From Chlamydiales bacterium (GTDB lineage Bacteria > Chlamydiota > Chlamydiia > Chlamydiales > SM23-39): a stretch of DNA of 56,477 bases. The stretch covers positions 1 to 56,477 of the forward strand of contig DATIHQ010000121.1 in assembly GCA_035480535.1 (NCBI GenBank), read 5' to 3'. Below the pieces are notes generated by a model. The model was given only the letters and a program-made list of their open reading frames with translations. It was not told the origin of the DNA and searched no databases. Every line of letters starts with the position of its first letter. Position 1 is the stretch's first letter. Below are positions 966 to 37,732 of the stretch, piece after piece. The position numbers and the translations under genes were made by a program.

Positions 966-1040
966 ACGAAAAAAACCCATGCAAAATAACGATTCACGCA
1001 ACTAGAATAGAAGATGTTGTATAGCATAAGTTTTTATAAA

Positions 1041-2030
1041 ATGAAAAGAATTCTCATCACTGGCGCCGCAGGATTCATTGGCTTTCACTTATCGGACTAT
1101 TTGCAGAAACGAGGCGATTTCATCATTGGCCTCGACAATTTCAACCCCTACTACAACCCCCAACTCAAGAAAGACCGGGCTGAAATCCTCCAAAAACAAA
1201 GCATCGAGATTCTTCAAGCCGATATCCGCGAAAAAGAACGCCTCACACAGCTCATCCACCACCATAACATCACTCACGTCGTTCATCTCGCCGCCCAAGC
1301 GGGGGTGCGCCATTCTCTCACAGCTCCCGATGACTACGTGGCCTCCAACCTCCAAGGCTTTGTCTCCATCCTCGAAGCTTGCCGCCTTTTCCCCGGCATA
1401 AAATTGATCTATGCCTCTTCTTCTTCCGTCTATGGCCTCAATCGTAAAATTCCTTTCAGCATTGATGACAAAACCGATCAACCTGCCAACCTCTATGGCG
1501 CGACGAAAAAAGCCAATGAAGTAATGGCCCACGCCTATCACCACCTCTATGGCCTGTCAGTGACGGCTCTTCGCTACTTCACCGCCTATGGACCTTGGGG
1601 TCGCCCCGACATGGCCTACTATCGATTTGCTCGGCAAATTTGCGATGGTCAGCCCATTCAAGTCTTTAATTGCGGCCAAATGCGACGCGATTTCACCTAC
1701 ATCGACGATATTGTTCGAGGAACGGCCGCGGCGATCGATCTCGGCGCTCCCTGCGAAATCTTCAATTTGGGAAATAATCGCCCCATCGAACTACTCTACC
1801 TCATTCAGCTGTTAGAGAAATCTTTGGAAAAAAAAGCCATTCAAGAATTGCTCCCGATGCAGCCGGGGGAGGTCATTGAAACCTTTGCCGATATTGAAAA
1901 AAGCCAAAAGCTGCTCCATTTCTACCCCTCAATTTCCATTGAAGAGGGGATTATCCGCTTCGCCAAATGGTTCAAGCACTATCACGCCACTTCATCACAA
2001 TCTGAAAGGCTTTTGGCAGGCACTCGATAA
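1041..2030 (+). CDS. NAD-dependent epimerase, UDP-glucuronate 4-epimerase-like (SDR family)
   Basis: ILITGAAGFIG Rossmann motif, HLAAQAGVR, YASSSSVYG, YGATKKANE (YxxxK), GPWGRPDMA, RDFTYIDD; start placed at MKRILITG. Confidence 0.9.
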   Translation: MKRILITGAAGFIGFHLSDYLQKRGDFIIGLDNFNPYYNPQLKKDRAEILQKQSIEILQADIREKERLTQLIHHHNITHVVHLAAQAGVRHSLTAPDDYVASNLQGFVSILEACRLFPGIKLIYASSSSVYGLNRKIPFSIDDKTDQPANLYGATKKANEVMAHAYHHLYGLSVTALRYFTAYGPWGRPDMAYYRFARQICDGQPIQVFNCGQMRRDFTYIDDIVRGTAAAIDLGAPCEIFNLGNNRPIELLYLIQLLEKSLEKKAIQELLPMQPGEVIETFADIEKSQKLLHFYPSISIEEGIIRFAKWFKHYHATSSQSERLLAGTR

Positions 2031-3456
2031 GATCGCTGGCAATCACGCAGTAGGAAGTTTTTTCTTTTGCCGCTTCTTCGCCCGCAATTCCATGTAAAAT
2101 CGTCCCCAGAATCGCCGCTTCATAACAAAACATCCCTTGAGCCAATAAAGCCGCCAAGATGCCCGTTAGCACATCTCCAGTCCCTGCAGTGGCCATCCCC
2201 GGATCTCCATGAGTGATCACAATCGGAGCTTTTCCAGGTGCAAAAATAAACGTAGGCGCCCCTTTCAAGACAACCACCGTTTGTTTCCGTTCGCAGAAAC
2301 GCATCACTTTAGAAAACAAGTCTTCCTCTTCTTCGGGCACCTGTTTCAAACCCAGAATGCGCAGCGCTTCTCCTCGATGAGGAGTCAAAATAGATAGCGC
2401 GGGATACTGAAGATCGGGCAATAGTGCATCTGCATCGACAACGCAGGGCTGTTTAATTCCTTTCATATAGGTCTGCAACCAACGATGCGTCTCTTTTGAT
2501 TTCCCCAATCCCGGTCCAATGAAAAGAGATTGCGCGCGCGCCATAGCCTCTTTCCACTCTTTCACATTCCATTCACCACAAATCAACTCATCAAAGGCGG
2601 GGCCAATCTTTTCTGGATAGAATAAACGGACAATGCCTGCACCCGCTCTTAAAGCAGCCCGGCTCGCCATCTTTGCAGCTCCCGAAAATTCAGTGGATCC
2701 GGCAAAACCCACTACAAAACCCGATTGATATTTATGCCTCGTTCTCACAATCTGCGGCAGCCTTAAATGTTTCCAATTCGGCAAATAAGCCACCGCATTG
2801 GCTTCTTCAAAATCTTCTTGCAGCAGCCCAAAGTTCTCCACTCTCAACTGGCCAACGCAATTCCATCCCTGTCTGAGAAAAAAACCTATCTTTGGCAATC
2901 CCAATGTAATCGTCTCTTGCGCGACAATCACATAATTCCCAGCCTCGCCAGTCGTCCCATTCAATCCGGAGGGAATATCGATCGCTAAAATGGGCTTGCC
3001 TGAATCGACAGCCCGCTGAATGACAGCTCCCATCGCCGGTTCGACATTCCCTTTAAAACCGGTCCCCAAAAGGCCATCTAAAATCAACCCATCTTCTTCA
3101 AAGTGGATTTCCTTCGGTTCAATCCGTCCCTTTTTTTTCTTAAACCGTTCTCCAAATTTCCGATTCAATGCGCTGCCTTCTTCCATTTTGTATAATGGCA
3201 CCGCCCGCACCTGAAATCCTTCATCTAGCAAATAGATCCCAGCTGCCCACGCATCTCCCCCATTATTGCCCTTCCCCACCAGCAAGGCGATCCGCCTAAC
3301 CAATCCATGCTTTTCCACATATTCCATCGCCGCCAGCGCCACCTTGCGGCCTGCCTCATCCATGAAGCGCTCTTCATCCCCCCCCCGTCCCACAGCCCGT
3401 TTTTCAATTCGAGCCATTTCCTGGGCAGTCACAATTTTCAAACCTTCAATCGACAT
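1972..3456 (-). CDS. nnr: Bifunctional NAD(P)H-hydrate epimerase/dehydratase (YjeF)
   Basis: GKGNNGGD, DGLLGTG, DIPSG (YjeF_N); KYQSG, GAA, GPGLG, DADA, LTPHRGE, VLKG, MATAGTGDVLTG (carbohydrate kinase domain); start trimmed to MSIEG. Confidence 0.93.
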   Translation of the reverse strand: MSIEGLKIVTAQEMARIEKRAVGRGGDEERFMDEAGRKVALAAMEYVEKHGLVRRIALLVGKGNNGGDAWAAGIYLLDEGFQVRAVPLYKMEEGSALNRKFGERFKKKKGRIEPKEIHFEEDGLILDGLLGTGFKGNVEPAMGAVIQRAVDSGKPILAIDIPSGLNGTTGEAGNYVIVAQETITLGLPKIGFFLRQGWNCVGQLRVENFGLLQEDFEEANAVAYLPNWKHLRLPQIVRTRHKYQSGFVVGFAGSTEFSGAAKMASRAALRAGAGIVRLFYPEKIGPAFDELICGEWNVKEWKEAMARAQSLFIGPGLGKSKETHRWLQTYMKGIKQPCVVDADALLPDLQYPALSILTPHRGEALRILGLKQVPEEEEDLFSKVMRFCERKQTVVVLKGAPTFIFAPGKAPIVITHGDPGMATAGTGDVLTGILAALLAQGMFCYEAAILGTILHGIAGEEAAKEKTSYCVIASDLIECLPKAFQIVMKWRDSA

Positions 3457-3539
3457 GCACGACCTTTTTATATTGTGCATAACAAAGATCAACAAATTAC
3501 GCTACTAAACATCAGGCTCATATCCTGAAACATAATACG

Positions 3540-3706
3540 AATATCAGCGCAGAGGTAGGGGGCAGAGATAGAAAGAACGCAGAGGAAAAAAAAGCCGGGA
3601 CCCTGCCCGGAGTTAGAGAGGGGCGCCCTTTCTTCCTCCGGACGAAGTCCGCCAACTTTCTCTCTGCGAACTTTCTATCTCTGCCCTTCCCCTCTGCGCT
3701 GATATT
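3540..3706. repeat. 167-nt intergenic element with about 45-bp imperfect terminal inverted repeats and nested hairpins (MITE-like or structured RNA)
   Basis: Left arm 3540-3584 AATATCAGCGCAGAGG-TAGG-GGGCAGAGATAGAAAG-AA-CGCAGAG versus reverse complement of right arm 3662-3706 AATATCAGCGCAGAGG-GGAA-GGGCAGAGATAGAAAG-TT-CGCAGAG (39/45 identical); inner hairpins at 3607-3641 and GGAC-GAA-GTCC. Confidence 0.85.
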
Positions 3707-3736
3707 CTCATTACGTCTACGACTATAGGCCTGATA

Positions 3737-4726
3737 CTACAGATGTTCTTCCTTGATGGTCCTTGTTAGAAGCGCTTTGACGGCTTCTCTTGGATCGGCG
3801 GCGTTGAAGATCACTCCATAGGTCGCCTCAGTGATTGGAATGGGAATATTCGCTTTAAGTCCCAATTCGCGAGCGGAAACGCAGGTGTAGATTCCCTCGA
3901 CTGCCATGCCGATTTTCTGACGTGCACCTTCGGGTGAAAACCCTTCGGCAATGAGTTTTCCAAATCGATAATTGCGGCTGTGGCGCGACATGCAAGTGAC
4001 GCAGAGATCTCCCATCCCCGAAAGGCCGTTCAACGTCTCTGGTTTACACTCTTTCACAACGCACAATTTTTTGATTTCATGAAGCCCACGCGTCATCAAA
4101 GCCGCCTTCGCATTATCGCCGTAACCCAACCCATCGGAAATGCCGCATGCAATCGCAATGATGTTTTTCATCGCGCCCCCAAAGCAAACTCCGCGGATAT
4201 CGGCATTGGGATAAATCCGAAAGGTCGGCGTAGTGAAAAGCTCGTGGATCAATTTCATGATCCCGTTTTCATAAGCGGAGCAAACGACCGAAGTAGGTAA
4301 ATTGAGAACCACCTCTTCCGCATGGCTCGGGCCGCTGAGGCACCCCACCAAGGGACTTTCCTTCACTCCGATGATTTCAGAGACCACTTCAGGTAAAAGC
4401 AATCCAGTCCCTTGCTCGATTCCCTTGGAAGTCAAAATCACCGGAACATCGATGGTCCCAATTTCTTGAAATACAGGGCGAATCCCCGAAGAAGTAACGC
4501 TTTCCACTAAGAGATCCGCTCCCTGCGCTGCCTCAGCAAGTACATTTGTAAATCGAATCGAGCGGGGAATGCTGAAATTGGCCAGTTTCGGATGGGTCCG
4601 CTTTTCTTCCAGATGTTTTGCGAGCTCCGGATCGCGCGTCCATGCAATCACTTCATGTCCATTGCCAGCGAGAATTGAAGCCAGAGCTACGCCCCACGTT
4701 CCCGATCCCAAATATCCAATTTTCAT
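3737..4726 (-). CDS. gpsA: NAD(P)H-dependent glycerol-3-phosphate dehydrogenase
   Basis: GSGTWG, SKGIE, SGPSHAEEV, GGAMKNIIAIACG, GLSGMGDLCVTC, SRNYRFG. Confidence 0.96.
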   Translation of the reverse strand: MKIGYLGSGTWGVALASILAGNGHEVIAWTRDPELAKHLEEKRTHPKLANFSIPRSIRFTNVLAEAAQGADLLVESVTSSGIRPVFQEIGTIDVPVILTSKGIEQGTGLLLPEVVSEIIGVKESPLVGCLSGPSHAEEVVLNLPTSVVCSAYENGIMKLIHELFTTPTFRIYPNADIRGVCFGGAMKNIIAIACGISDGLGYGDNAKAALMTRGLHEIKKLCVVKECKPETLNGLSGMGDLCVTCMSRHSRNYRFGKLIAEGFSPEGARQKIGMAVEGIYTCVSARELGLKANIPIPITEATYGVIFNAADPREAVKALLTRTIKEEHL

Positions 4727-13310: not shown

Positions 13311-13842
13311 AAATTTTTTCTATTCCTTTACATTCTGTGCGGAGCAAGGAATAAATGCAAAGGTCGAGGAATCTTCCTCTATGAAAAAAAGAGGATCGGG
13401 CAATCCCTTCAAACTGAAATCCAGCCTTTTTGGCCAAATGTAAAGCGGCTTTACAATAGTCTGGAACAGAGAATTGCAGCCTCTCAACTTTCTGTGTAGC
13501 AAAGAGATAACTGCAAAATAAGGGAAGCGCCGCAGCCATGAGTCCCTGCCCGCGATCCTCTCTTTGAAAGATGTAACAGCGCAAATCAAGGCAATCGAAA
13601 AGCTTCTGTTTTTCATACCAAAGAGCTCCCACCAAACGCCCTTCCGGCAAAATAATCAATAGCGTTCCTTTTTCCTCTCCCCAAAAACCAGTTTCATGGA
13701 AATCCTTACGAAATTGATGTTCTGATAAAAGATTGCTGGGAAGATATTCCCCCTTGTGGCGAATGGAATCGAGAACTTGATAGAGTTCAATTAAATCGCC
13801 CTCTTTGACGGTCCGCAGATGAAAGCGTTCATTTTCGATCAT
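13303..13842 (-). CDS. GNAT N-acetyltransferase (RimJ/RimL family)
   Basis: RGQGLM acetyl-CoA motif, KAGFQFEGIAR, 179 aa. Confidence 0.85.
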   Translation of the reverse strand: MIENERFHLRTVKEGDLIELYQVLDSIRHKGEYLPSNLLSEHQFRKDFHETGFWGEEKGTLLIILPEGRLVGALWYEKQKLFDCLDLRCYIFQREDRGQGLMAAALPLFCSYLFATQKVERLQFSVPDYCKAALHLAKKAGFQFEGIARSSFFHRGRFLDLCIYSLLRTECKGIEKIYE

Positions 13843-13932
13843 AAGTACAGAATCATAACACCACCCACTTTATTATCAAATTAAACCAAAATTTATTTGT
13901 ATAATTCAAAATTTTACATTAAAATTTATACC

Positions 13933-13961
13933 TTGTAAGAAATGCCATTCCCTATTAAAAT
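13933..13961 (+). promoter_or_regulatory. Putative sigma66/sigma70 promoter of secA
   Basis: TTGTAA-17 bp-TAAAAT, 24 bp upstream of the secA ATG in an AT-rich spacer. Confidence 0.6.
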
Positions 13962-13985
13962 TTTGTCAAAGTTGATAGGGTCTCT

Positions 13986-16901
13986 ATGTTTGGTCTATTG
14001 AAATCACTTTTTGGAACGCATCAGTCCCGTTTGCTAAAGAAATATTGGAAACTCGTCCCCCAAGTCAATGCTTGGGAAGAGAAATTTCAAAAATTTTCTG
14101 ATGAAGAACTCCGTCATAAGACGATTGAATTCAAAGAAAGATTAGCAAAAGGGGAGCCTCTGGAATCTCTCATTCCGGAAGCTTTTGGAGCGGTAAAAAA
14201 CGTTTGCCGCAGGCTTTGCGGCACGGACGTGCATGTCTCTGGATATGACCAAAAATGGGACATGATTCCCTATGATGTCCAAATTTTGGGCGCAATTGCG
14301 ATGTTCCAAGGCTCGATTGCCGAGATGCAAACGGGGGAGGGAAAAACGCTGACCGCCTCTATGCCGCTCTATCTTCACGCAGTCACGGGCAAACCTGTCC
14401 ACCTCGTCACGGTCAATGACTATCTCGCCAAGCGCGACTGCGAATGGATTGGCTCCATTTTCCGCCGCCTCGGCCTCACCGTCACCTACCTCACAAATGA
14501 TGTGCCTCCTCACAAGCGCAAAGAGACCTACGCCGCCGATATCGTCTATGGGACGGCCTCTGAATTTGGCTTTGATTATCTCCGCGACAATTCAATGGCG
14601 ATGCACAAAAATGAACAGGTGCAGCGAGGCCATTACTTTGCGATGGTCGATGAAATCGACTCGATCCTCATCGACGAAGCGCGCACGCCGCTCATCATTT
14701 CAGGCCCCGTTCCTGAAAGCCGCCAAATGTACGACGAATTAAAAGAGGGCGTGGCTCACATTGTCCGGATCCAGCGCGATTCGTGCAATCGCCTGGCCAC
14801 CGAAGCGCGCCGCACGCTCGATTCTCTCGGTCTTTTCGAAGAGGAAGCGGCTCCTCGCAAACTGACCAAAGAGGAAGAAGAAAAGAAAAACGAAGCCTTT
14901 AAACATCTTTGGCTCTCCAGCAAAGGAACGCCGCGCAATAAGATCATCAAACGGGTGAAAGAAAATCCCGATATGCGAGCGGAAATCGACAAGTGGGAAA
15001 CCTATTTTTACGGCGAGCAGAATAAAGAAGAGAAATTCGATACGCTCGCTGCCCTCTACATGATTGTCGATGAGCGAAATAATGAGTTTGAGCTCACCGA
15101 TAAGGGAATTCGCGCTTGGAGCGAATTCAAAGAGGGCGTTGGCGCCGATGATTTTGTGATGTTTGACCTCGGCCATGAATATGCCACCATCGATCAAAAT
15201 CCAGCCCTCTCTGATCCAGAGAAGATGCAAGCCAAAATTTCTCTGCGCGAGCAAGATTCAAAGAGAAAAGAGAGAGCCCACAACCTGCGCCAGATGCTTC
15301 GCGCCCATCTTCTCATGGAAAAAGACATCGACTACATCGTTCAAGAGAATAAGATCATCATCATCGATGAAAATACGGGACGTCCGCAGCCAGGGCGTCG
15401 CTTCTCCGATGGCCTCCACCAAGCGATCGAGGCAAAAGAAGATGTCGCAATCCAAGGGGAAACGCAAACATACGCCACCATCACGCTGCAAAACTATTTC
15501 CGCATGTACGACAAGCTCTCCGGCATGACCGGTACAGCGATGACGGAAGCGAATGAATTCAAAGAGATCTATAAACTCGAGGTCCTTGAAATTCCCACTC
15601 ACCGCGATTGCCAAAGGGAAGATTTCGACGATGAGATCTACATGACAGAGAGGGAAAAATACAACGCCATCTTAAAAGAGATCAAAAATCTCCATGAAAA
15701 AGGGCGCCCCATCCTCATCGGCACAGATTCTGTCGAAACTTCAGAAAAACTCTCCCGCATTCTCAAGCAAAACAAACTCGAGCACACAATTCTCAATGCG
15801 AAAAACCACGCGAAAGAAGCCGAAATCATCGCCGATGCAGGGAAAAAAGGAGCCATCACTCTCGCCACTAATATGGCGGGGCGTGGAACAGACATTAAAC
15901 TCAAAGAAGGCGTTCTCGAAGTAGGCGGACTCCACGTCATTGCCACCACGCGCCACCAATCGCGCCGCATCGACCGCCAGCTGCGAGGCCGCTCAGGCCG
16001 CCTCGGCGATCCCGGTTCTTCCAAATTCTTTGTCTCTTTCGAAGATTCGCTCATGCGCCTTTTCTCTTCCCCCCGCATGACCGCACTTCTCCAACGTTTC
16101 CGCCCCCCCGAAGGGGAGCCCATCTCTGCGAAAGTGCTCAATAAATCGATTGAAACAGCCCAAAAACGGGTAGAGCAGCGCAATTACACCATCCGCAAAC
16201 ACACGCTTGAATATGACGATGTGATGAATAAGCAGCGCAAAGAAGTCTATGCATTCCGCAACGATCTTCTCTTTGCTGAGAACGCGATCCAAATCGCCGA
16301 AGAGCTCCTCGATGCCGTCGCGCACCAGATGGCCGCCCCCTTCCTCGCCAACCGCAAAGGAGAAAAAGGTTGGGATCCCACAGCCTTCCGCAACACACTC
16401 CTCACTCACTTCCCAGTCACCTTCGAAGAAAATGATCTCGAAAATGACTATCTCACTACGCAAGACATCGAGAAGAAACTCAAAGAAAAGATCCTCACTA
16501 CATTCCAACAAAAGCTCTTTTTTCAAAGACAGCTTCTCTCCTCCTTCCGCCCCGATCTCAACGACGCGGAAAAAGCGCAAAATGTCCTCCAAGAAGTCGT
16601 GCGCAACCTCATGGTCCGCGAAATCGACAAACTCTGGCAAGAGCACCTTCTCCACATCGATCATCTCCGCTCTGACGTCCACATGCGCACCGTAGGGCAA
16701 AAAGATCCTCTCCTCGAGTTTAAACACGAATCGTTCACTCTCTTCGACGCCTTCTCTCAAAACTTACGCCTTGAAATCACTCGAGACCTCTTCCGCTTTG
16801 AGATGATGCCCCAATCGCCGCAGCAGAAACTGCAGCAAACCCTCTCCCAACTGCAGCGCAGCCCCAAGCGAACACCCAAAAAAATTGGTGAACTCACTTG
16901 A
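13986..16901 (+). CDS. secA: Preprotein translocase ATPase SecA
   Basis: EMQTGEGKTL, TVNDYLAKRD, DEIDSILIDEARTPLIISG, GRRFSDGLHQAIEAKE, TNMAGRGTDI, QLRGRSGRLGDPG. Confidence 0.98.
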   Translation: MFGLLKSLFGTHQSRLLKKYWKLVPQVNAWEEKFQKFSDEELRHKTIEFKERLAKGEPLESLIPEAFGAVKNVCRRLCGTDVHVSGYDQKWDMIPYDVQILGAIAMFQGSIAEMQTGEGKTLTASMPLYLHAVTGKPVHLVTVNDYLAKRDCEWIGSIFRRLGLTVTYLTNDVPPHKRKETYAADIVYGTASEFGFDYLRDNSMAMHKNEQVQRGHYFAMVDEIDSILIDEARTPLIISGPVPESRQMYDELKEGVAHIVRIQRDSCNRLATEARRTLDSLGLFEEEAAPRKLTKEEEEKKNEAFKHLWLSSKGTPRNKIIKRVKENPDMRAEIDKWETYFYGEQNKEEKFDTLAALYMIVDERNNEFELTDKGIRAWSEFKEGVGADDFVMFDLGHEYATIDQNPALSDPEKMQAKISLREQDSKRKERAHNLRQMLRAHLLMEKDIDYIVQENKIIIIDENTGRPQPGRRFSDGLHQAIEAKEDVAIQGETQTYATITLQNYFRMYDKLSGMTGTAMTEANEFKEIYKLEVLEIPTHRDCQREDFDDEIYMTEREKYNAILKEIKNLHEKGRPILIGTDSVETSEKLSRILKQNKLEHTILNAKNHAKEAEIIADAGKKGAITLATNMAGRGTDIKLKEGVLEVGGLHVIATTRHQSRRIDRQLRGRSGRLGDPGSSKFFVSFEDSLMRLFSSPRMTALLQRFRPPEGEPISAKVLNKSIETAQKRVEQRNYTIRKHTLEYDDVMNKQRKEVYAFRNDLLFAENAIQIAEELLDAVAHQMAAPFLANRKGEKGWDPTAFRNTLLTHFPVTFEENDLENDYLTTQDIEKKLKEKILTTFQQKLFFQRQLLSSFRPDLNDAEKAQNVLQEVVRNLMVREIDKLWQEHLLHIDHLRSDVHMRTVGQKDPLLEFKHESFTLFDAFSQNLRLEITRDLFRFEMMPQSPQQKLQQTLSQLQRSPKRTPKKIGELT

Positions 16902-31831: not shown

Positions 31832-33384
31832 CGCTCTAAATCGCCCTCTTTAATTTCAACTGCAATGGGGTTGCCCATCGGATCGTACGATCGATCTTTA
31901 CATCCCTGCAACTTCCGCCAAATCGCTGCTGCTTCATCCAACGAATAATTCTTTTTCACTGAACGGTAAAACCGCGCTGCCGCTGGCGCCAGTTTCTTTT
32001 CTTCTTTCCAGCTCGCAAAAAATTGAGGAAAATGGGCTGCCTCCAAAAAAGAGGGCAAAGCATCGATGACCAGCTTTTTCCCCCCGAGAAATCGACTCTC
32101 AATTCCCAGTTCGCGCAACTCTTCTACAATCGCCTCTTCTTTCCATTCAATTTCCAAGGGCCAGATCAATGCCTGCGGCTCTCCCTGTTCCCGACTCATC
32201 GACTCAAAAAGAATTCTCGCCTGCGCGGCGCGCAAATCGACAAGCCAAAAGCCTTCTTTCTCCACAATCAAGAAATTTCCTAAAACAACCAGCGGCCTCT
32301 CGGGAAAGGAAAATTCCAATTCTCGAGGTTCCTCTTTCGTAAAACGGGGCGTTTCTTCCGCAAAAGAGAAATCCATACGGGGAGGGATGAATGAAATCGA
32401 CTCAGAAAATAAAGGTCCTTCTCCAAATACAGCGGAGATCGTTTCCCGAACGATGGCAAAAACTTTTCCCTCTTCTCGAAAGCGGCATTCTTTCTTCTGC
32501 GGATGGACATTGACATCGATCTCTGCTGGTGGCAGTTCAAGAAAAAGGACATAAGCTGGATGCACGCTCTCCCCAATTCTCGTCCCGAATCCCTCTTTTA
32601 CAGCCCGTGAAATCAACGGAGAAAAAAGGGGACGGCCATTGATGAAGAGATGTTGTCCGCTCCGATTGGCTAAAGCTCGGCTCGGCGCCCCTAAAAAGCC
32701 CCATGTCTTTACTCCCTCTTTCGCAAATTCTACTTCATGGTCTTGCTTTCCTAAAATCTCCTCCACCCGCTCTTTCGCGCTTTGCCCCTTTACCTCAATG
32801 ACTTTTCTCCCCTGCGAAATCAAGATAAATCCCACATTTGGATTGGCCAGAGCCAGAGCCTCCATCACCCGCGTCACTTGCGCGCTGCAAGCCGAAACGG
32901 ATTTCTGAAACTTCTTTCGCGCGGGCACATTATAAAAAAGGGAACGCACTTCGACCGTCGTCCCTCGATTCCTAGCGCAAGGCTCCACAGCCGATACCCG
33001 TCCTCCCTCCGCCATGACCCGCGTCGCCTCATTGCCATTTCCCGTCTTCAATTGAAAATGGGATACCGATGCAATGGCCGCCAGCGCCTCTCCTCGAAAT
33101 CCCATCGTCGCTAGCGCCTGCAAATCTTCCACGCACACTATTTTCGACGTCGCATGCCTCTCGAGGCAAAGAAGCGCATCTTCCCGCCCCATCCCGCAGC
33201 CATCGTCTTCCACATAAATTCCCTGCAACCCACCCCCGTTCACCTCAACGACGATCCGCGTTGCCCCCGCATCTAGGCTATTTTCGACCAATTCCTTTAC
33301 AATAGACGCAGGATTTTCAACGACTTCCCCCGCGGCAATTTGATTGATGAGCGCCTCTGGCAGCCTCTGAATTCTCTTTTCCAT
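31792..33384 (-). CDS. mutL: DNA mismatch repair protein MutL
   Basis: NQIAAGEVVENP, KELVENSLDAGA, DDGCGM, RHATSK, MGFRGEALA, DVNVHPQK; start trimmed to MEKRIQ. Confidence 0.95.
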   Translation of the reverse strand: MEKRIQRLPEALINQIAAGEVVENPASIVKELVENSLDAGATRIVVEVNGGGLQGIYVEDDGCGMGREDALLCLERHATSKIVCVEDLQALATMGFRGEALAAIASVSHFQLKTGNGNEATRVMAEGGRVSAVEPCARNRGTTVEVRSLFYNVPARKKFQKSVSACSAQVTRVMEALALANPNVGFILISQGRKVIEVKGQSAKERVEEILGKQDHEVEFAKEGVKTWGFLGAPSRALANRSGQHLFINGRPLFSPLISRAVKEGFGTRIGESVHPAYVLFLELPPAEIDVNVHPQKKECRFREEGKVFAIVRETISAVFGEGPLFSESISFIPPRMDFSFAEETPRFTKEEPRELEFSFPERPLVVLGNFLIVEKEGFWLVDLRAAQARILFESMSREQGEPQALIWPLEIEWKEEAIVEELRELGIESRFLGGKKLVIDALPSFLEAAHFPQFFASWKEEKKLAPAAARFYRSVKKNYSLDEAAAIWRKLQGCKDRSYDPMGNPIAVEIKEGDLERWMKDGFKSSSVR

Positions 33385-33430
33385 GGCTAAACGTATATCA
33401 GAAATATCCTGCTCAAGTATACTGCCTTCC

Positions 33431-34225
33431 ATGAAATGGCTTTTCTTTCTCCTGCCTCTTTCTCTTTTTTCAGCCTATATTGGCAATCCCGCCAATCCGG
33501 CGATTATGAACACTGGCTTCTTCTCCTCTTCCTATCCGTTCTTTAAATTCACAACTGGCTACATTGCCGATTACATCTCAGACAAGCGCTACGTGGCGCC
33601 CCAGAAAGATCCCGATATCGATCCCAACAATGCCTTCCGCCATTTTGGCCTTCACTCGCAACTCGCCAGCGTTTCAATGATCATTGTCGAGCGGCTCGAA
33701 CTCTTCGGCTATGTCGGCGGCTCCAAGGAACATGTACAATACAGGAAAAAAGCCTCCCTTTCCGACCTTGAGGAGATTTTCTCCCACTTCCAAAGCACCT
33801 ATCAATTTTCCTGGAGCACCGGCGGTAGAGCCATCCTCCTCCAATGGGGACAAACCTACTTCACCACCGACTTTACCTACTTCGCCGTTCCCTCTTCCCC
33901 CAAGGCCTTCTTTAAATTTCTCAATCGTCTCAATCTTCCCATGGACCTCACTAAACAGAAAACGTCTCTCCGCGAATGGCAAGTCAGCGCCGCTCTCGCC
34001 TCCCGCTTCCTTTTTTTCACCCCCTATTTTGGCGGCACCTATCTCCATTCGCGCCTCCACCTCTCAAGTGGCCCCGACATTCCCTCCATCACCTACCGCA
34101 ATGAAAAAAAATGGGGCTATTTCTTTGGCTTTACGGTCTCTCTCACAGGCCGCTTCCATCTTAACTTCGAGAGGCGCATGCGCGATGAATTTGCCTATGC
34201 CTTCTCAACCATCGCGGTGTTCTAA
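33431..34225 (+). CDS. Chlamydial MOMP/OmpA-family outer-membrane porin-like protein
   Basis: Signal peptide followed by YIGNPANPA (cf. MOMP PVGNPAEP), EWQV..AL, PYFG, aromatic beta-strands, C-terminal Phe. Confidence 0.8.
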   Translation: MKWLFFLLPLSLFSAYIGNPANPAIMNTGFFSSSYPFFKFTTGYIADYISDKRYVAPQKDPDIDPNNAFRHFGLHSQLASVSMIIVERLELFGYVGGSKEHVQYRKKASLSDLEEIFSHFQSTYQFSWSTGGRAILLQWGQTYFTTDFTYFAVPSSPKAFFKFLNRLNLPMDLTKQKTSLREWQVSAALASRFLFFTPYFGGTYLHSRLHLSSGPDIPSITYRNEKKWGYFFGFTVSLTGRFHLNFERRMRDEFAYAFSTIAVF

Positions 34226-35163
34226 TGAAACACTATTTTCTTCTCTTCATTGTCCTCTTCTCCCAAATCGGCACAGCATCTCCCAAAACCTTTCTGGTTT
34301 TTGGCGGAAAAACAGGCTGGATTGGCCAACAATTAGTTGCGCTCTTGAAAGAGCAAAATCAAATCGTCTTTTGTGCAGAATCGCGGCTCGAAAATAGGGA
34401 AGAAATCGAAAGGGAAATCAACGCCACCCATCCCGATTTTATTCTCAATGCAGCTGGCGTTACGGGAAGACCCAATGTGGATTGGTGCGAAGATCATCGA
34501 CAAGAAACTCTGCGATCCAACATCACTGGAGTCCTCAACTTAGCCGACATCGCCTACCTCCACCACATTCACCTCACAAATCTCGGCACCGGCTGCATTT
34601 ATCAATATGATTCAGCCCACCCGCTCGGCTCTCACATTGGCTTTACAGAAGAAGAGGAGCCAAACTTTGCAGGGTCATTTTACTCCAAGACAAAAGTGAT
34701 GCTAGATAAGCTGCTCACAAACTATCCGAATGTATTAAACCTACGCCTCCGAATGCCGATTTCAAGCGATCTCCATCCCCGAAGTTTTATCTACAAAATC
34801 ACCCGCTATAAAAAAGTTGTCAACATTCCCAATTCCATGACCATCCTCGATGATCTCCTCCCCGTTTGCATTGAAATGGCCCTCAGAAACCTCACAGGAA
34901 ACTACAACTTCACCAATCCAGGCGTCATTTCCCACAACGAGATCTTAGCGCTCTACCAACACTACATCGACCCCACCTTCACCTGGGAAAATTTCACCCT
35001 GGAAGAGCAAAACGCCATCCTAAAAGCCCAGCGTTCCAACAACGAACTCGACGTAGGAAAGCTCCTCAAGGAATTCCCCCATATCCCCCCAATCCAAGAA
35101 TCGATCCACACCGTATTTCAAAAGATGAGGCAAAGCATTGTAAATAATTCATCTCCGGAATAG
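34225..35163 (+). CDS. Plant-type nucleotide-rhamnose 3,5-epimerase/4-reductase (NRS/ER, UER1-like) with N-terminal signal-like peptide
   Basis: GKTGWIG, NAAGVTGRPNVDWCE, TGCIYQYD..HP.GS.IGF.EE..PNF.GSFYSKTK, LRLRMPISSDL, IPNSMTILDDLLP, NFTNPGVISHNEIL, RSNNELD. Confidence 0.88.
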   Translation: MKHYFLLFIVLFSQIGTASPKTFLVFGGKTGWIGQQLVALLKEQNQIVFCAESRLENREEIEREINATHPDFILNAAGVTGRPNVDWCEDHRQETLRSNITGVLNLADIAYLHHIHLTNLGTGCIYQYDSAHPLGSHIGFTEEEEPNFAGSFYSKTKVMLDKLLTNYPNVLNLRLRMPISSDLHPRSFIYKITRYKKVVNIPNSMTILDDLLPVCIEMALRNLTGNYNFTNPGVISHNEILALYQHYIDPTFTWENFTLEEQNAILKAQRSNNELDVGKLLKEFPHIPPIQESIHTVFQKMRQSIVNNSSPE

Positions 35164-35193
35164 ACTCCTCCCTCATTTTTAATGGAGTTAGCT

Positions 35194-35739
35194 ATGTCAT
35201 CCCCAATATCGAGTATTTATAACTCTCCAGAAGGCCCAAGTTACACTCCTGCATCTGCCGAAACTCAGGACAAGACTGTAATCTATCATGGTCATATGCG
35301 CTTTGAAGAGTTTGAAAGGCGACGAGATACTTTAGATAACTGCGAAATTTTTGATCAACTCACGCATTTGGGTTCATGCATTTACTATTTTAAGAACTGC
35401 AAAGCCGTAAAACAAGATTCCAACCGAATAAAGGTAGCAGCTTGTAAAGATTCCACATTCCAAGAAATTCTGCATCGATATCTCCAGCAAAGACTGATTC
35501 AACCCGCCTCTTCTGCCCCCTCTGGCGGACCTATTTGCCCGCTAACAGTCCCCAAGGGAGGACCTATTTCCTCCAGCTCATCAGCAGAAAGCTCCTCATC
35601 GAATGGAGGACCTATTCTCGGCCCACCAACAATCGAAAAGGGAGGACCTACTTCCTCCAGTTCGTCAGCACAACTTCCATGGTGGAGCCCGAGTAGAGGA
35701 TCTGCCGCCAGTGACCCAATGGGTTACGACGGCTTTTGA
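35194..35739 (+). CDS. Hypothetical Ser/Pro-rich protein with internal duplication (effector-like)
   Basis: GGAG SD 6 nt upstream of ATG 35194; four GGP(I/T) motifs; duplicated DNA segment 35554-35589 / 35638-35673. Confidence 0.7.
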   Translation: MSSPISSIYNSPEGPSYTPASAETQDKTVIYHGHMRFEEFERRRDTLDNCEIFDQLTHLGSCIYYFKNCKAVKQDSNRIKVAACKDSTFQEILHRYLQQRLIQPASSAPSGGPICPLTVPKGGPISSSSSAESSSSNGGPILGPPTIEKGGPTSSSSSAQLPWWSPSRGSAASDPMGYDGF

Positions 35740-37028
35740 AAACCCTATTTGAAAAATTGGGGAAAGAAGCTACTCTGTCCATGAGATTTATGGAAGAACA
35801 CCCGCAGGCCCGTTTCATTGTAGAAACTCTCGCAAAAGCAGGCTTCATCGCCTACTACGCGGGCGGTTGGGTGCGCGATTTCCTGTTGAATCACCCTTCC
35901 GACGATATCGATATTGCCACCAATGCCCCGCCCGAGACGATTCAAGCCCTTTTTCCCCACACCGTCCCGATCGGCATCGCCTTTGGGATCATCCTGGTCA
36001 TCGTCGATGGGCGCCAGTATGAAGTGGCCACCTTTCGCCAAGATCTCGATTACAAAGATGGGCGCCGCCCCACGCGCATTGCGTTCGCCACGGCTGTGGA
36101 AGATGCCAAAAGACGCGACTTTACAATCAATGGGATGTTCTACGATCCGCTAAAAGAGGAAATTTTCGACTACGTGCATGGGCGCGAGGATCTAGAGGCC
36201 AAAATCATCCGCGCGATTGGAAATCCCCATGAGAGAATTAAGGAAGATCGCCTGCGGATGATCCGCGCGGTGCGCCTGGCTTGCCGCTTCTCTTTTCACA
36301 TTGAATCAGACACGGAGCGCGCTATCCGCGCGCATGCAAATGAGCTCTTTCCCGCCGTTGCGATCGAGCGGATTTGGCAAGAGTTTACGAAAGGACATGA
36401 TTTTGGCAAACTCCGCCCGATGCTCATCCAGCTTCATGAGTTTGGACTCCTCGGCGCCATTTTCCCTGCCCTCAAAGAGGTCCCTCTTCCAGAAATCGAG
36501 GATCGGCTTCACCCCATTAAAGATTATCCGATCGACGCCCCCGTCATCGCCTCTCTTCTTCCCCTTTTTCCCCATTTTATTCTTGCTGAACAACTCGATC
36601 TCGCTAGAAAACTCAAACTCTCCAATCAGGAGCAGCAATTTGTCACCTATCTCTTCCATCTTCGAGAACTCATCCACGCAGAACACGCCCGCCCCATTGA
36701 GCTGGCCGAATGGGCCTATGCCTATGCCAATCATTTTTCTAAAATCTCGCTGCAAATCATCGGCGCTCATTTGGAGCCGCGCCGCCGCGCTGCCTACTTT
36801 AAGGAACATGAAGAGCGAATCGCCCTTCTTCACCTGAGCATCCAGCGCATCCAAAAACATGACCCCGTGGTCAAATCGGGCAATTTGATCGACGCAGGCA
36901 TTCTCCCCGGGAAAACCATGGGACTTCTCCTCAGCGAAGCCGACCGGATCGCGATCAATGAACAACTTCATGAACCCGCGCCCATCATCGAGCGCCTGAA
37001 ACAGACATCTCTATGGCCAAATACCTAA
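35736..37028 (+). CDS. CCA tRNA nucleotidyltransferase / poly(A) polymerase family
   Basis: AGGWVRDFLL, DIDIAT, EVATFR, DAKRRDFTINGM, EDRLRMIRAVR; start 35736 (TTG) or 35780 (ATG). Confidence 0.92.
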   Translation: MKTLFEKLGKEATLSMRFMEEHPQARFIVETLAKAGFIAYYAGGWVRDFLLNHPSDDIDIATNAPPETIQALFPHTVPIGIAFGIILVIVDGRQYEVATFRQDLDYKDGRRPTRIAFATAVEDAKRRDFTINGMFYDPLKEEIFDYVHGREDLEAKIIRAIGNPHERIKEDRLRMIRAVRLACRFSFHIESDTERAIRAHANELFPAVAIERIWQEFTKGHDFGKLRPMLIQLHEFGLLGAIFPALKEVPLPEIEDRLHPIKDYPIDAPVIASLLPLFPHFILAEQLDLARKLKLSNQEQQFVTYLFHLRELIHAEHARPIELAEWAYAYANHFSKISLQIIGAHLEPRRRAAYFKEHEERIALLHLSIQRIQKHDPVVKSGNLIDAGILPGKTMGLLLSEADRIAINEQLHEPAPIIERLKQTSLWPNT

Positions 37029-37732
37029 TCCTATTTATTATTTTTTCGCTTCATGCCGAAATCATTGAAACCAATCAGATGGAAGACATCCTTCCCCACA
37101 TCGATGAAACTACATGGGTTCTATTCGACATCGATAACACTCTCCTCGAATCCTCGATACAAGCGGGAAGAGCTGAGTGGTTTCACCATGAAATAAGAAA
37201 ACTGGTAGCTCAAGGACTCGACAAAGAAACAGCCGAAGAACTCTTTTATCCCGACTGGGATCGCTTTATGAATCATTGTCCTATTCGCACTCCTGAACCT
37301 GAGATAGCCAGCCTCGTCAAAAAAGTGCAGAAGCGGTGCGCCGCTTCGTTTGCCCTCACCTCCCGCCACCCTCCTCTTTCCAACCTCACTCTACGGCAAC
37401 TGAAACAGTTGGACATCGACTTCTCCCGCCATGCCCCCGCTTCCGTTCTCCTTAAAACTCCTCATCCGACTCATTGGGAAGAAGGGATCCTTTTCGCCTC
37501 TCATCACAACCCAAAGGGAACGCTTTTCCGCCAATTCCTCGAAAAATCGAAGAAACAGCCCCCGAAGATTGTTTTTATCGATGATACCAAGCATCACCTG
37601 CTCGATATGGAAATGGAATTAGAAAAATTGGGAATTGAGTTTATCGGCGTCCATTATACGAAAACGTTTGAACGCCCTTTTGAAGCCGAAGTGGCCGAGA
37701 GAGAATTTCAGGAAATTTTAGACCGTTTATGA
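37013..37732 (+). CDS. DUF2608-like HAD-fold protein with signal peptide
   Basis: LFDIDNTL, ALTSR, GILF...KG, VFIDD..HHL. Confidence 0.75.
   Translation: MAKYLILFIIFSLHAEIIETNQMEDILPHIDETTWVLFDIDNTLLESSIQAGRAEWFHHEIRKLVAQGLDKETAEELFYPDWDRFMNHCPIRTPEPEIASLVKKVQKRCAASFALTSRHPPLSNLTLRQLKQLDIDFSRHAPASVLLKTPHPTHWEEGILFASHHNPKGTLFRQFLEKSKKQPPKIVFIDDTKHHLLDMEMELEKLGIEFIGVHYTKTFERPFEAEVAEREFQEILDRL

What the first reader, a model, noticed from the sequence alone, without database searches (positions are those of the whole stretch)
34225..35163. Plant/eukaryote-type rhamnose 3,5-epimerase/4-reductase carrying a signal peptide
Seen: near-continuous motif identity with plant NRS/ER and the C-terminal domain of RHM (GKTGWIG, AAGVTGRPNVDWCE, GSFYSKTK, RMPISSDL, PRSNN-like), preceded by MKHYFLLFIVLFSQIGTA. 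Established: bacteria normally use separate RmlC and RmlD; the bifunctional enzyme is typical of plants, fungi, protists and some giant viruses, and it needs cytosolic NADPH. Inference: a gene shared by horizontal transfer with eukaryotes or giant viruses. The signal peptide suggests export or membrane tethering, possibly acting on host nucleotide sugars.
Basis: partly seen in the sequence, partly recalled or inferred. Interest (0 to 1): 0.65.

Follow-up and report, generated by a model that had tools for sequence, protein, structure and literature searches.

The report
Export-tagged plant-type rhamnose synthase in Chlamydiae
A chlamydia-like bacterium encodes an intact plant/fungal-type enzyme for the last two steps of activated L-rhamnose synthesis, and it and more than 100 relatives in protist-infecting bacteria start with a secretion signal, so this normally cytoplasmic, NADPH-using enzyme probably works outside the bacterial cytoplasm.

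Summary
ORF 34225-35163 (+, 312 aa) is a full-length NRS/ER-type 3,5-epimerase/4-reductase. It matches Arabidopsis NRS/ER (4QQR) at E 1e-110 and Mimivirus L780 at 2e-71, but scores far below the RmlD cut-off. All the cofactor-binding and catalytic residues I checked are conserved.

The hydrophobic N-terminus must be translated, because no other start codon precedes the NAD(P)-binding motif. It is a trait of a whole clade: 110 of 113 full-length close homologs have it, with variable sequence but a constant signal-peptide layout. Among 79 family representatives, only the 6 from this clade have it.

The clade (Chlamydiota, Dependentiae and a few other small-genome MAGs) is monophyletic (support 98-99). 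It sits among named plant, fungal and protist sequences, apart from the Mimivirus-type and CPR/DPANN clades. Transfer to or from eukaryotes is therefore old and clade-wide, and its direction is unresolved. Giant-virus origin is not supported.

In 21 of 27 related loci a signal-tagged NDP-glucose 4,6-dehydratase lies directly upstream. This genome lacks it; a MOMP-like porin gene, translationally coupled, takes its place. The genome also has a cytoplasmic rmlABCD set and an island whose ORFs nearly all carry such signals.

Most likely the enzyme is Sec-exported and belongs to an extracytoplasmic, host-fed glycan pathway. Localisation and activity are untested.

The parts
34225..35163 (+). NRS/ER-type NDP-4-keto-6-deoxyglucose 3,5-epimerase/4-reductase gene (312 aa plus stop)
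   Evidence: ORF listing. 4QQR E 1e-110 and 7JID E 2e-71. AF2 and Foldseek TM 0.92-0.95 to 4QQR. dN/dS 0.059 against the 93%-identical ortholog in L092.
34225..34278 (+). Codons 1-18, predicted Sec/SPase I signal peptide MKHYFLLFIVLFSQIGTA. The likely cleavage is G-T-A|S after Ala18.
   Evidence: K2 in the n-region, an 18-residue uncharged span, and small residues at -3 and -1. The layout is conserved in 110 of 113 homologs while the sequence varies. AF2 shows a separate helix at 2-13 with pLDDT 70-75. The cleavage site is inferred by rule; no SignalP was available.
34279..35160 (+). Mature catalytic SDR domain (residues 19-312). It has G28-x-x-G31-x-x-G34, S53-R54 (the conserved arginine likely at the NADPH 2'-phosphate), T122, C124, Y153, K157 and K191.
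   Evidence: These positions are invariant or nearly invariant in alignment A1 of 47 sequences. They align with T113, C115, Y144, K148 and K183 of 4QQR. The functional roles of these residues are recalled from the NRS/ER structure paper, not tested here.
33431..34225 (+). Upstream gene for a small MOMP-like outer-membrane protein (264 aa from MKWLFFLLPLSLFSA|YIGNPANPA; the longest ORF starts at 33383)
   Evidence: It has its own signal peptide and a GNPA motif at the mature N-terminus. The Pfam Chlam_OMP hit is borderline at 19.9 bits against a cut-off of 20. There are three paralogs in the genome. The same junction with the NRS/ER gene occurs in L092.
34223..34227 (+). TAATG, where the stop of the OMP gene overlaps the start of the NRS/ER gene (translational coupling)
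   Evidence: Read directly from the sequence. The overlap is conserved in L092.

Best explanation
The gene encodes a functional bifunctional NDP-4-keto-6-deoxy-D-glucose 3,5-epimerase/4-reductase of the plant/fungal NRS/ER type. It would make UDP- or dTDP-beta-L-rhamnose using NADPH. It is synthesised with a cleavable Sec signal peptide and so is translocated across the inner membrane. It is co-translated with a MOMP-like porin. I infer that it works in the periplasm, or further out in the vacuole lumen, as one step of a signal-tagged Leloir-type glycan pathway. That pathway comprises a dehydratase, NRS/ER, GME, a UDP-sugar dehydrogenase, glycosyltransferases and O-methyltransferases, and would draw nucleotide sugars and cofactors from the host. 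This is distinct from the bacterium's own cytoplasmic dTDP-rhamnose pathway. Shown: enzyme family, intact catalytic residues, purifying selection, clade-wide signal-peptide layout, linkage to a signal-tagged 4,6-dehydratase in relatives. Inferred: actual export and cleavage, compartment, substrate nucleotide, source of NADPH and of the 4-keto sugar in this genome.
For: Enzyme identity. Selection: dN/dS 0.059 at dS 0.59. Signal: there is no alternative start before codon 41. Of 113 full-length homologs, 110 have an h-region and 101 pass a crude n-h-c plus -3/-1 test, against 18.9% of this genome's ORFs. The median uncharged span is 16 residues, which fits a signal peptide rather than a 20-residue anchor. 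N-flank net charge is +1.75 against +0.15 on the C-flank, which indicates N-in orientation. The trait maps exactly to the clade: 6 of 6 clade representatives have it and 0 of 73 others do. The clade has support of 98-99. System context: a signal-tagged 4,6-dehydratase sits directly upstream in 19 of 25 loci and in both family relatives that carry the gene. Neighbouring GT-like and methyltransferase families all have such N-termini. On contig C56 of this genome, 15 of 19 ORFs pass the crude signal test and 18 of 19 look signal-like by eye. They include a GME (2C59, E 2.6e-92), a UDPG/MGDP dehydrogenase and a rhamnosyl-O-methyltransferase-like protein. Non-redundancy: signal-less rmlA, rmlB, rmlC and rmlD are also present. 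Lifestyle: all 22 carrier genomes have TLC/NTT nucleotide transporters, against 0 of 14 controls. Precedent: C. trachomatis runs glycogen synthesis in the inclusion lumen from imported host UDP-glucose (PMC4829429). [quoted passage not shown]
Against: There is no experimental localisation and no SignalP-grade predictor; my signal test is a heuristic. The reductase step needs stoichiometric NADPH, which is not known to be available in a bacterial periplasm. This genome (90.8% complete) has no signal-tagged 4,6-dehydratase; the best match is cytoplasmic RmlB at 38% identity. So the source of the 4-keto substrate outside the cytoplasm is unexplained here. The NTT correlation is confounded by phylogeny, since all Chlamydiae and Dependentiae have NTTs. 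All data come from MAGs.
Confidence: 0.5

Rival explanations
1. The N-terminal hydrophobic segment is an uncleaved membrane anchor. It would hold a cytoplasm-facing enzyme at the inner membrane, next to membrane-bound glycan assembly, and the chemistry would use the bacterium's own nucleotide sugars and NADPH.
For: This would solve the NADPH and substrate problem. Cytoplasmic RmlB is present and could supply dTDP-4-keto-6-deoxyglucose, and NRS/ER-type enzymes accept dTDP substrates (PMC9614988).
Against: The charge bias (N-flank +1.75, C-flank +0.15) predicts N-in/C-out. The median uncharged span of 16 residues is short for a transmembrane helix. Small residues at -3 and -1 followed by acidic residues are typical of cleaved signals. 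An enzyme in the cytoplasm would duplicate RmlC plus RmlD. Only 3-8 residues separate the segment from strand beta1.
Confidence: 0.12
2. The enzyme is Sec-exported and then released from the bacterium by type II secretion or vesicles. It would act as an effector in the vacuole lumen or host cytosol, remodelling host nucleotide-sugar pools or host glycans rather than building a bacterial glycan.
For: Host compartments contain NADPH and UDP-sugars. A GspF homolog, and so probably a T2SS, is present on C6. Chlamydial sugar-metabolising enzymes are known to be secreted into the inclusion lumen (PMC4829429).
Against: The known chlamydial examples use type III signals, not Sec signals. The gene is translationally coupled to an outer-membrane protein gene. 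Elsewhere it is linked to methyltransferases and GT-like enzymes, which suggests assembly of a defined glycan. There is no evidence that the host supplies 4-keto-6-deoxyglucose nucleotides.
Confidence: 0.2
3. The gene is an ordinary cytoplasmic rhamnose-synthesis gene and the 'signal' is an annotation artefact or an unused leader (wrong start codon).
For: MAG-derived gene calls often pick wrong starts.
Against: No in-frame start exists between codon 1 and codon 41, and starting at codon 41 would delete the GxxGxxG motif. The ATG overlaps the upstream stop (TAATG) here and in L092. The layout recurs in 110 of 113 homologs from different assemblies. It is absent from all 73 non-clade representatives.
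Confidence: 0.03

Closest known systems
Arabidopsis thaliana NRS/ER (UER1; PDB 4QQR) and the C-terminal domain of plant RHM
   Same: About 65% identity across the whole catalytic domain (E 1e-110). It has the same fold (TM 0.92-0.95), the same GxxGxxG, T/Y/K triad and Cys/Lys pair, and the single-domain architecture of NRS/ER.
   Different: The plant enzyme is cytosolic and has no signal, whereas this one has an 18-residue Sec-type signal peptide. This gene is bacterial and sits in a bacterial clade of more than 100 members. In relatives it is paired with a separate RmlB-like dehydratase of bacterial type, not fused to an RHM-type N-domain.
Acanthamoeba polyphaga Mimivirus L780 UDP-L-rhamnose synthase (PDB 7JID), working with R141
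   Same: It is a stand-alone bifunctional epimerase/reductase paired with a separate 4,6-dehydratase. L780 is NADPH-dependent and accepts UDP- and dTDP-linked substrates (PMC9614988). Identity is about 45% and TM 0.92-0.94.
   Different: It belongs to a separate, well-supported clade (99) in both trees. It has no signal peptide and acts in the virus factory or host cytoplasm.
Bacterial RmlC plus RmlD (dTDP-L-rhamnose pathway)
   Same: The net reaction on the 4-keto-6-deoxyglucose nucleotide is the same, and RmlD has the same SDR fold (Foldseek E about 1e-16).
   Different: These are two proteins rather than one, 17-22% identical to this one, and TIGR01214 scores 46.5 against a cut-off of 224. 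This genome has genuine rmlC and rmlD as well, without signals.
Chlamydia trachomatis luminal glycogen pathway (GlgA and others secreted; host UDP-glucose imported through SLC35D2; Gehre et al. 2016, PMC4829429)
   Same: It is a chlamydial nucleotide-sugar-using enzyme set that works outside the bacterial cytoplasm on host-supplied activated sugar.
   Different: Those enzymes leave by type III secretion and carry no Sec signal. They polymerise glucose and do not interconvert nucleotide sugars or need NADPH.
Plant Golgi-lumenal nucleotide-sugar interconversion enzymes (membrane-anchored UXS/AUD; the Golgi location of GAE is from my own knowledge)
   Same: They are SDR nucleotide-sugar enzymes placed by an N-terminal hydrophobic segment on the non-cytosolic side of a membrane (AUD is named as membrane-anchored UXS in PMC3220709).
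   Different: They are eukaryotic type II anchors in a compartment fed by nucleotide-sugar transporters, and their chemistry (decarboxylase, 4-epimerase) needs no external NADPH.

Membership tests
NRS/ER (UER) / RHM C-terminal domain: bifunctional NDP-4-keto-6-deoxyglucose 3,5-epimerase/4-reductase | Full-length sequence and fold similarity to biochemically characterised members | tested here: met
   4QQR E 1e-110 over residues 18-302 and 7JID E 2e-71. Foldseek TM 0.92-0.95.
NRS/ER (UER) / RHM C-terminal domain | SDR cofactor motif GxxGxxG and the T/S-Y-K catalytic triad | tested here: met
   G28, G31, G34, T122, Y153 and K157 are invariant or nearly invariant in A1. They align with T113, Y144 and K148 of 4QQR.
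NRS/ER (UER) / RHM C-terminal domain | Cys/Lys acid-base pair for 3,5-epimerisation (C115/K183 in Arabidopsis; role recalled from the structure paper) | tested here: met
   C124 and K191 align with C115 and K183. C124 is nearly invariant and K191 invariant in A1. Only the residues were tested, not their roles.
NRS/ER (UER) / RHM C-terminal domain | Catalytic conversion of UDP/dTDP-4-keto-6-deoxy-Glc to UDP/dTDP-L-Rha with NADPH | not testable with these tools
   Needs an enzyme assay.
NRS/ER (UER) / RHM C-terminal domain | Soluble cytosolic protein without a targeting signal (as in plants, fungi and viruses) | tested here: not met
   An 18-residue signal-like N-terminus is present. Of 79 family representatives, the 73 outside the clade lack one.
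RmlD, dTDP-4-dehydrorhamnose reductase (TIGR01214) | Score above the curated equivalog cut-off | tested here: not met
   46.5 bits against a cut-off of 224.05, and only the N-terminal half matches. The genuine RmlD on C116 scores 262.7.
Sec-dependent signal peptide (SPase I type) | A positively charged n-region, an h-region of about 7-15 hydrophobic residues, and a c-region with small residues at -3 and -1 | tested here: met
   K2; FLLFIVLF; G16-T17-A18|S19. This comes from a heuristic, not SignalP.
Sec-dependent signal peptide (SPase I type) | Conserved layout with unconserved sequence among orthologs | tested here: met
   110 of 113 homologs have it. The N-termini are not alignable but share the n-h-c pattern.
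Sec-dependent signal peptide (SPase I type) | Demonstrated translocation and cleavage | not testable with these tools
   Needs reporter fusions or N-terminal proteomics.
Giant-virus (Mimivirus-type) UDP-rhamnose synthases | Phylogenetic placement within the L780 clade | tested here: not met
   The L780 clade is separate with support 99 in both trees.

The most novel reading that the evidence does not exclude
Environmental Chlamydiae and Dependentiae may run a complete Leloir-type pathway outside their own cytoplasm, in the periplasm or vacuole lumen. It would include nucleotide-sugar interconversion (4,6-dehydratase, NRS/ER, GME, UDP-sugar dehydrogenase), glycosyl transfer and O-methylation. 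It would be fed by host UDP-glucose, GDP-mannose, NADPH and SAM that reach the periplasm, as host ATP does for the NTT transporters. This gene would be the rhamnose-forming step. A further, less likely layer is that the cytosolic plant-type NRS/ER and GME share recent ancestry with this exported bacterial toolkit. That would bear on the proposed chlamydial contribution to early plant evolution.
Probability: 0.35. Interest if true: 0.85.

Novelty: new variant of a known kind. Interest (0 to 1): 0.7.

Why it matters
Bacterial glycans are, by textbook, built from nucleotide sugars in the cytoplasm and moved out on lipid carriers. A conserved secretion signal on an NADPH-dependent nucleotide-sugar enzyme contradicts that layout. 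The same signal is on its dehydratase partner and on surrounding methyltransferases and transferases. The carriers are two unrelated phyla of protist-infecting bacteria with nucleotide importers.

If the enzymes are active outside the cytoplasm, energy parasitism would extend to activated sugars and reducing power, and these bacteria would have a Golgi-like topology for glycan synthesis.

The finding also revises the view that the NRS/ER family is almost purely eukaryotic. In 2011 only four bacterial homologs were known, all from Verrucomicrobia (PMC3220709). Finally, it gives a concrete, easily expressed enzyme (residues 19-312) and an 18-residue leader with which the idea can be tested.

Tried and rejected
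(1) Local synteny. Apart from one histidine kinase in L015, none of this gene's window neighbours recurs near the gene in 25 related loci. The conserved neighbour elsewhere, the fam1 dehydratase, is absent here.

(2) Signal-tagged 4,6-dehydratase or GMD in this genome. tblastn with five further queries found only cytoplasmic RmlB (36-38% identity) and weaker SDRs. A regex scan for signal plus Rossmann ORFs added only the UDP-sugar dehydrogenase on C56, apart from the NRS/ER and the GME already seen.

(3) Recent foreign insertion. GC content across 33-36 kb (0.44-0.52) does not stand out from its surroundings.

(4) Own promoter or terminator. Consensus scans gave no more hits than shuffled sequence.

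(5) Direction of the eukaryote-bacterium transfer. The group holding the clade and the eukaryotes is an unresolved polytomy. Only 6 of 20 looked-up representatives carried an organism or eukaryote-source name, so the question stays open.

(6) In the IQ-TREE run a long-branch group of RmlC-fusion proteins (P0156, P0159, P0161, P0163) fell inside the signal clade. In FastTree it fell elsewhere. I treat this as long-branch instability.

(7) Literature. Three full-text searches found no paper on signal-tagged nucleotide-sugar enzymes in Chlamydiae or Dependentiae. The L780 structure paper (PMC7586890) is not held.

(8) Giant-virus origin was rejected on tree placement.
Full report
WHAT IS THERE. 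The window is contig C121 of a 1.76-Mb, 121-contig genome that is 90.8% complete. The flanking genes are typical of a chlamydia: mutL, pepP, a CCA-adding enzyme, an RsbU-like phosphatase and a MOMP-like protein. The closest loci are Chlamydiota MAGs.

Against solved structures the protein matches Arabidopsis NRS/ER (4QQR) at E 1e-110 over residues 18-302. It matches the Mimivirus UDP-L-rhamnose synthase L780 (7JID) at E 2e-71. The next hits are at E 3e-5 or weaker. Pfam and NCBIfam see only generic SDR similarity in the N-terminal half, and the RmlD equivalog model scores 46.5 bits against a cut-off of 224. An AlphaFold2 model built on 47 sequences has mean pLDDT 93.8. It superposes on 4QQR (TM 0.92-0.95) and 7JID (0.92-0.94), while RmlD structures follow at 17-22% identity.

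The GxxGxxG motif (G28, G31, G34) is invariant or nearly invariant, and so are T122, C124, Y153, K157 and K191. They align with T113, C115, Y144, K148 and K183 of the Arabidopsis enzyme. The roles of those residues are recalled from the structure paper, not tested here. A 93%-identical ortholog from another sample (L092) gives dN/dS 0.059 at dS 0.59, so the gene is under strong purifying selection.

THE N-TERMINUS. The ATG at 34225 overlaps the stop of the upstream gene (TAATG), and this junction is kept in L092. The next in-frame ATG, GTG or TTG is codon 41, behind the NAD(P)-binding motif. A functional enzyme must therefore include residues 1-21. Residues 1-18 (MKHYFLLFIVLFSQIGTA) have a lysine, an uncharged hydrophobic core and G-T-A before Ser19. 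In the model they form a separate helix of lower confidence, joined by a linker to strand beta1 at residue 22.

The decisive point is comparative. Among the 120 best database homologs, the 113 full-length ones almost all begin in the same way. 110 have a hydrophobic core, 101 pass a crude n-h-c plus -3/-1 test, and the background for this genome's ORFs is 18.9%. The median uncharged span is 16 residues. Net charge is +1.75 before the core and +0.15 after it. The sequences themselves are not conserved. Layout conserved while sequence drifts is the signature of a working signal peptide, and the charge bias predicts that the catalytic domain ends up outside the inner membrane. Among 79 representatives of the wider family, clustered at 50% identity, exactly six have such a segment. 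Five of them fall in this gene's clade in the trees. The sixth (P0140) was too short to include.

PHYLOGENY AND DISTRIBUTION. Named loci carrying close homologs (56-72% identity) are Chlamydiota (Parachlamydiaceae, Simkania and others) and Dependentiae (Babeliaceae, Vermiphilus). A few 1.0-1.4-Mb MAGs labelled Pseudomonadota or 'bacterium' also carry them. Homologs at about 40% identity occur in Peregrinibacteria, other CPR lineages and DPANN archaea.

In FastTree and IQ-TREE (LG+C20) trees the signal-bearing sequences form one clade with support 99 and 98. The CPR/DPANN and Mimivirus-type clades are separate, each at 99. The signal clade lies in a group (support 92-94) whose named members are plants (4QQR, a Phlomoides RHM), fungi (Fusarium, Hypoxylon) and two entries from eukaryote protein sets (EukProt/MMETSP), presumably protists. 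That group is a polytomy, so the direction of transfer between eukaryotes and these bacteria cannot be read. Within the clade, Dependentiae and Chlamydiota interleave, which implies exchange between the two phyla.

Among 40 relatives of this genome (24 in the same family), only two others carry the gene, so it is accessory. In 2011 only four bacterial homologs were known, all from Verrucomicrobia (PMC3220709). I found no paper describing the signal-bearing clade.

GENOMIC CONTEXT.
- In 19 of 25 related loci, and in both family relatives, the gene directly follows a roughly 370-aa NDP-glucose 4,6-dehydratase on the same strand. The best PDB hits for this partner are dTDP-glucose 4,6-dehydratases (E 3e-74), with Mimivirus R141 at 2.5e-51. 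The partner also begins with a signal-like segment.
- Five other loci have a signal-bearing SDR with a CapD-like N-terminus in that position; this partner was not scanned against any family library.
- Other recurrent neighbours are GT-like proteins of about 310 aa, methyltransferases of about 240 and 370 aa, and other proteins. All have the same kind of N-terminus.
- The pathway is a mosaic: a bacterial-type dehydratase joined to a eukaryote-type epimerase/reductase.

This genome differs from its relatives. The upstream gene is a small MOMP-like outer-membrane protein, with a borderline Chlam_OMP hit, a GNPA motif and three paralogs. No signal-tagged dehydratase is found in the assembly.

The genome does hold a complete canonical set without signals. 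rmlA is on C93. rmlC, rmlD and rmlB are on C116:14584-16949. All four score above their equivalog cut-offs.

It also holds an 19-kb contig, C56, on which essentially every ORF starts with a signal-like segment. By eye 18 of 19 do, and 15 of 19 pass the crude test. They include a GDP-mannose 3,5-epimerase (Arabidopsis GME 2C59, E 2.6e-92), a UDP-glucose/GDP-mannose dehydrogenase, FkbM- and TylF-type methyltransferases, a GT2 protein and a protein with a rhamnosyl O-methyltransferase (RMNT_CmcI) domain. Homologs of that last protein sit next to the NRS/ER gene in four other genomes.

MECHANISM. The best-supported reading is that the protein is exported by Sec and has its signal removed near Ala18. 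It would then convert an NDP-4-keto-6-deoxyglucose to NDP-L-rhamnose outside the cytoplasm, as part of a signal-tagged glycan pathway that is separate from the cytoplasmic dTDP-rhamnose route.

The main difficulty is chemical. The reductase half-reaction consumes NADPH, as shown for L780, which also accepts both UDP and dTDP substrates (PMC9614988).

All 22 carrier genomes examined encode TLC/NTT nucleotide transporters, against 0 of 14 control genomes. Host nucleotides must therefore reach their periplasm, and by extension host NADPH and UDP-sugars might too. This correlation is confounded by phylogeny, however.

There is a precedent. C. trachomatis synthesises glycogen in the inclusion lumen from host UDP-glucose, using enzymes secreted by type III secretion (PMC4829429).

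A second difficulty is specific to this genome: the missing dehydratase partner. It may lie in the unassembled 9%, or the substrate may come from elsewhere.

RIVALS. The alternatives are a cytoplasm-facing membrane anchor, a secreted effector acting in the host, and a mis-called start.
- The anchor reading is disfavoured by the charge bias, the short hydrophobic span and redundancy with RmlCD.
- The effector reading remains open, since GspF is present.
- The mis-called start is excluded by the codon argument and by conservation across homologs.

RELATION TO EARLIER NOTES OF THIS SCAN. Six earlier AI reports describe islands of signal-tagged sugar enzymes in other chlamydial or Babeliales genomes. 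I reached the same pattern independently from this gene's homologs and from contig C56, so the notes agree with my reading. They are not independent evidence. This case adds four things: the rhamnose-forming step, its conserved signal-tagged dehydratase partner, its embedding among eukaryotic sequences, and an 'orphan' copy coupled to a porin gene.

VERDICT. The enzyme family is known, but the signal-bearing bacterial clade is a new variant with an unexpected predicted location. Export and activity remain to be shown.

Noticed in passing
own genome contig C56:1-18971 (outside the window): This is a 19-ORF island in which essentially every product begins with a signal-like segment. It includes a plant-type GDP-mannose 3,5-epimerase (1676-2719; 2C59 E 2.6e-92), a UDPG/MGDP dehydrogenase (2716-3873), FkbM, TylF and RMNT_CmcI-type methyltransferases and a GT2 protein. 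Contigs C14 and C40 are similarly enriched.
   Followed up: partly
L012-L035, gene directly upstream of the NRS/ER homolog (e.g. L012:4785-5975): The signal-tagged 4,6-dehydratase partner has the motif ISTSEVYG (Thr-Ser-Glu, as I recall for GDP-mannose dehydratase and UXS) in place of the Thr-Asp-Glu of RmlB/RHM, in the 11 of 20 members that a regex for this motif matched (9 ISTSEVYG, 2 ISSSEVYG). Its overall best matches are still dTDP-glucose 4,6-dehydratases. Its true substrate and chemistry are untested.
   Followed up: partly
window 1014-2030 (+): This is a 338-aa extended SDR without a signal (Pfam Epimerase 191.7 bits), below all NCBIfam equivalog cut-offs. It may be the UDP-glucuronate 4-epimerase-like gene that Yin et al. 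2011 linked to the plant UGlcAE family through Protochlamydia.
   Followed up: no
window 35182-35739 (+): This 185-aa ORF lies directly downstream. It has no family hit and contains repeated GGPI...SSSS(A)E(S) units. A shorter (147 aa) gene is called at the same position in L092.
   Followed up: no
window 37013-37732 (+): This DUF2608/HAD-phosphatase-like protein also starts with a signal-like segment (MAKYLILFIIFSLHAEIIE).
   Followed up: no
L092:1-366: The first 366 bases of this Logan contig are an inverted copy of window 33401-33766, the 5' half of the OMP-like gene, abutting the 3' end of the same gene. This is probably an assembly fold-back at the contig end, not biology.
   Followed up: partly
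representatives P0156, P0159, P0163, P0193 and P0002, P0003, P0011: The wider family includes fusions of an RmlC-like cupin to an NRS/ER domain, and proteins with two tandem NRS/ER domains. Their organisms are unknown (metagenomic).
   Followed up: no
own genome C116:14584-16949 (-) and C93:525-1379 (+): Canonical rmlC-rmlD-rmlB are clustered but rmlA is on another contig. ORFs beside the cluster (C116:11363-12208 and 13452-14465) again carry signal-like N-termini.
   Followed up: partly
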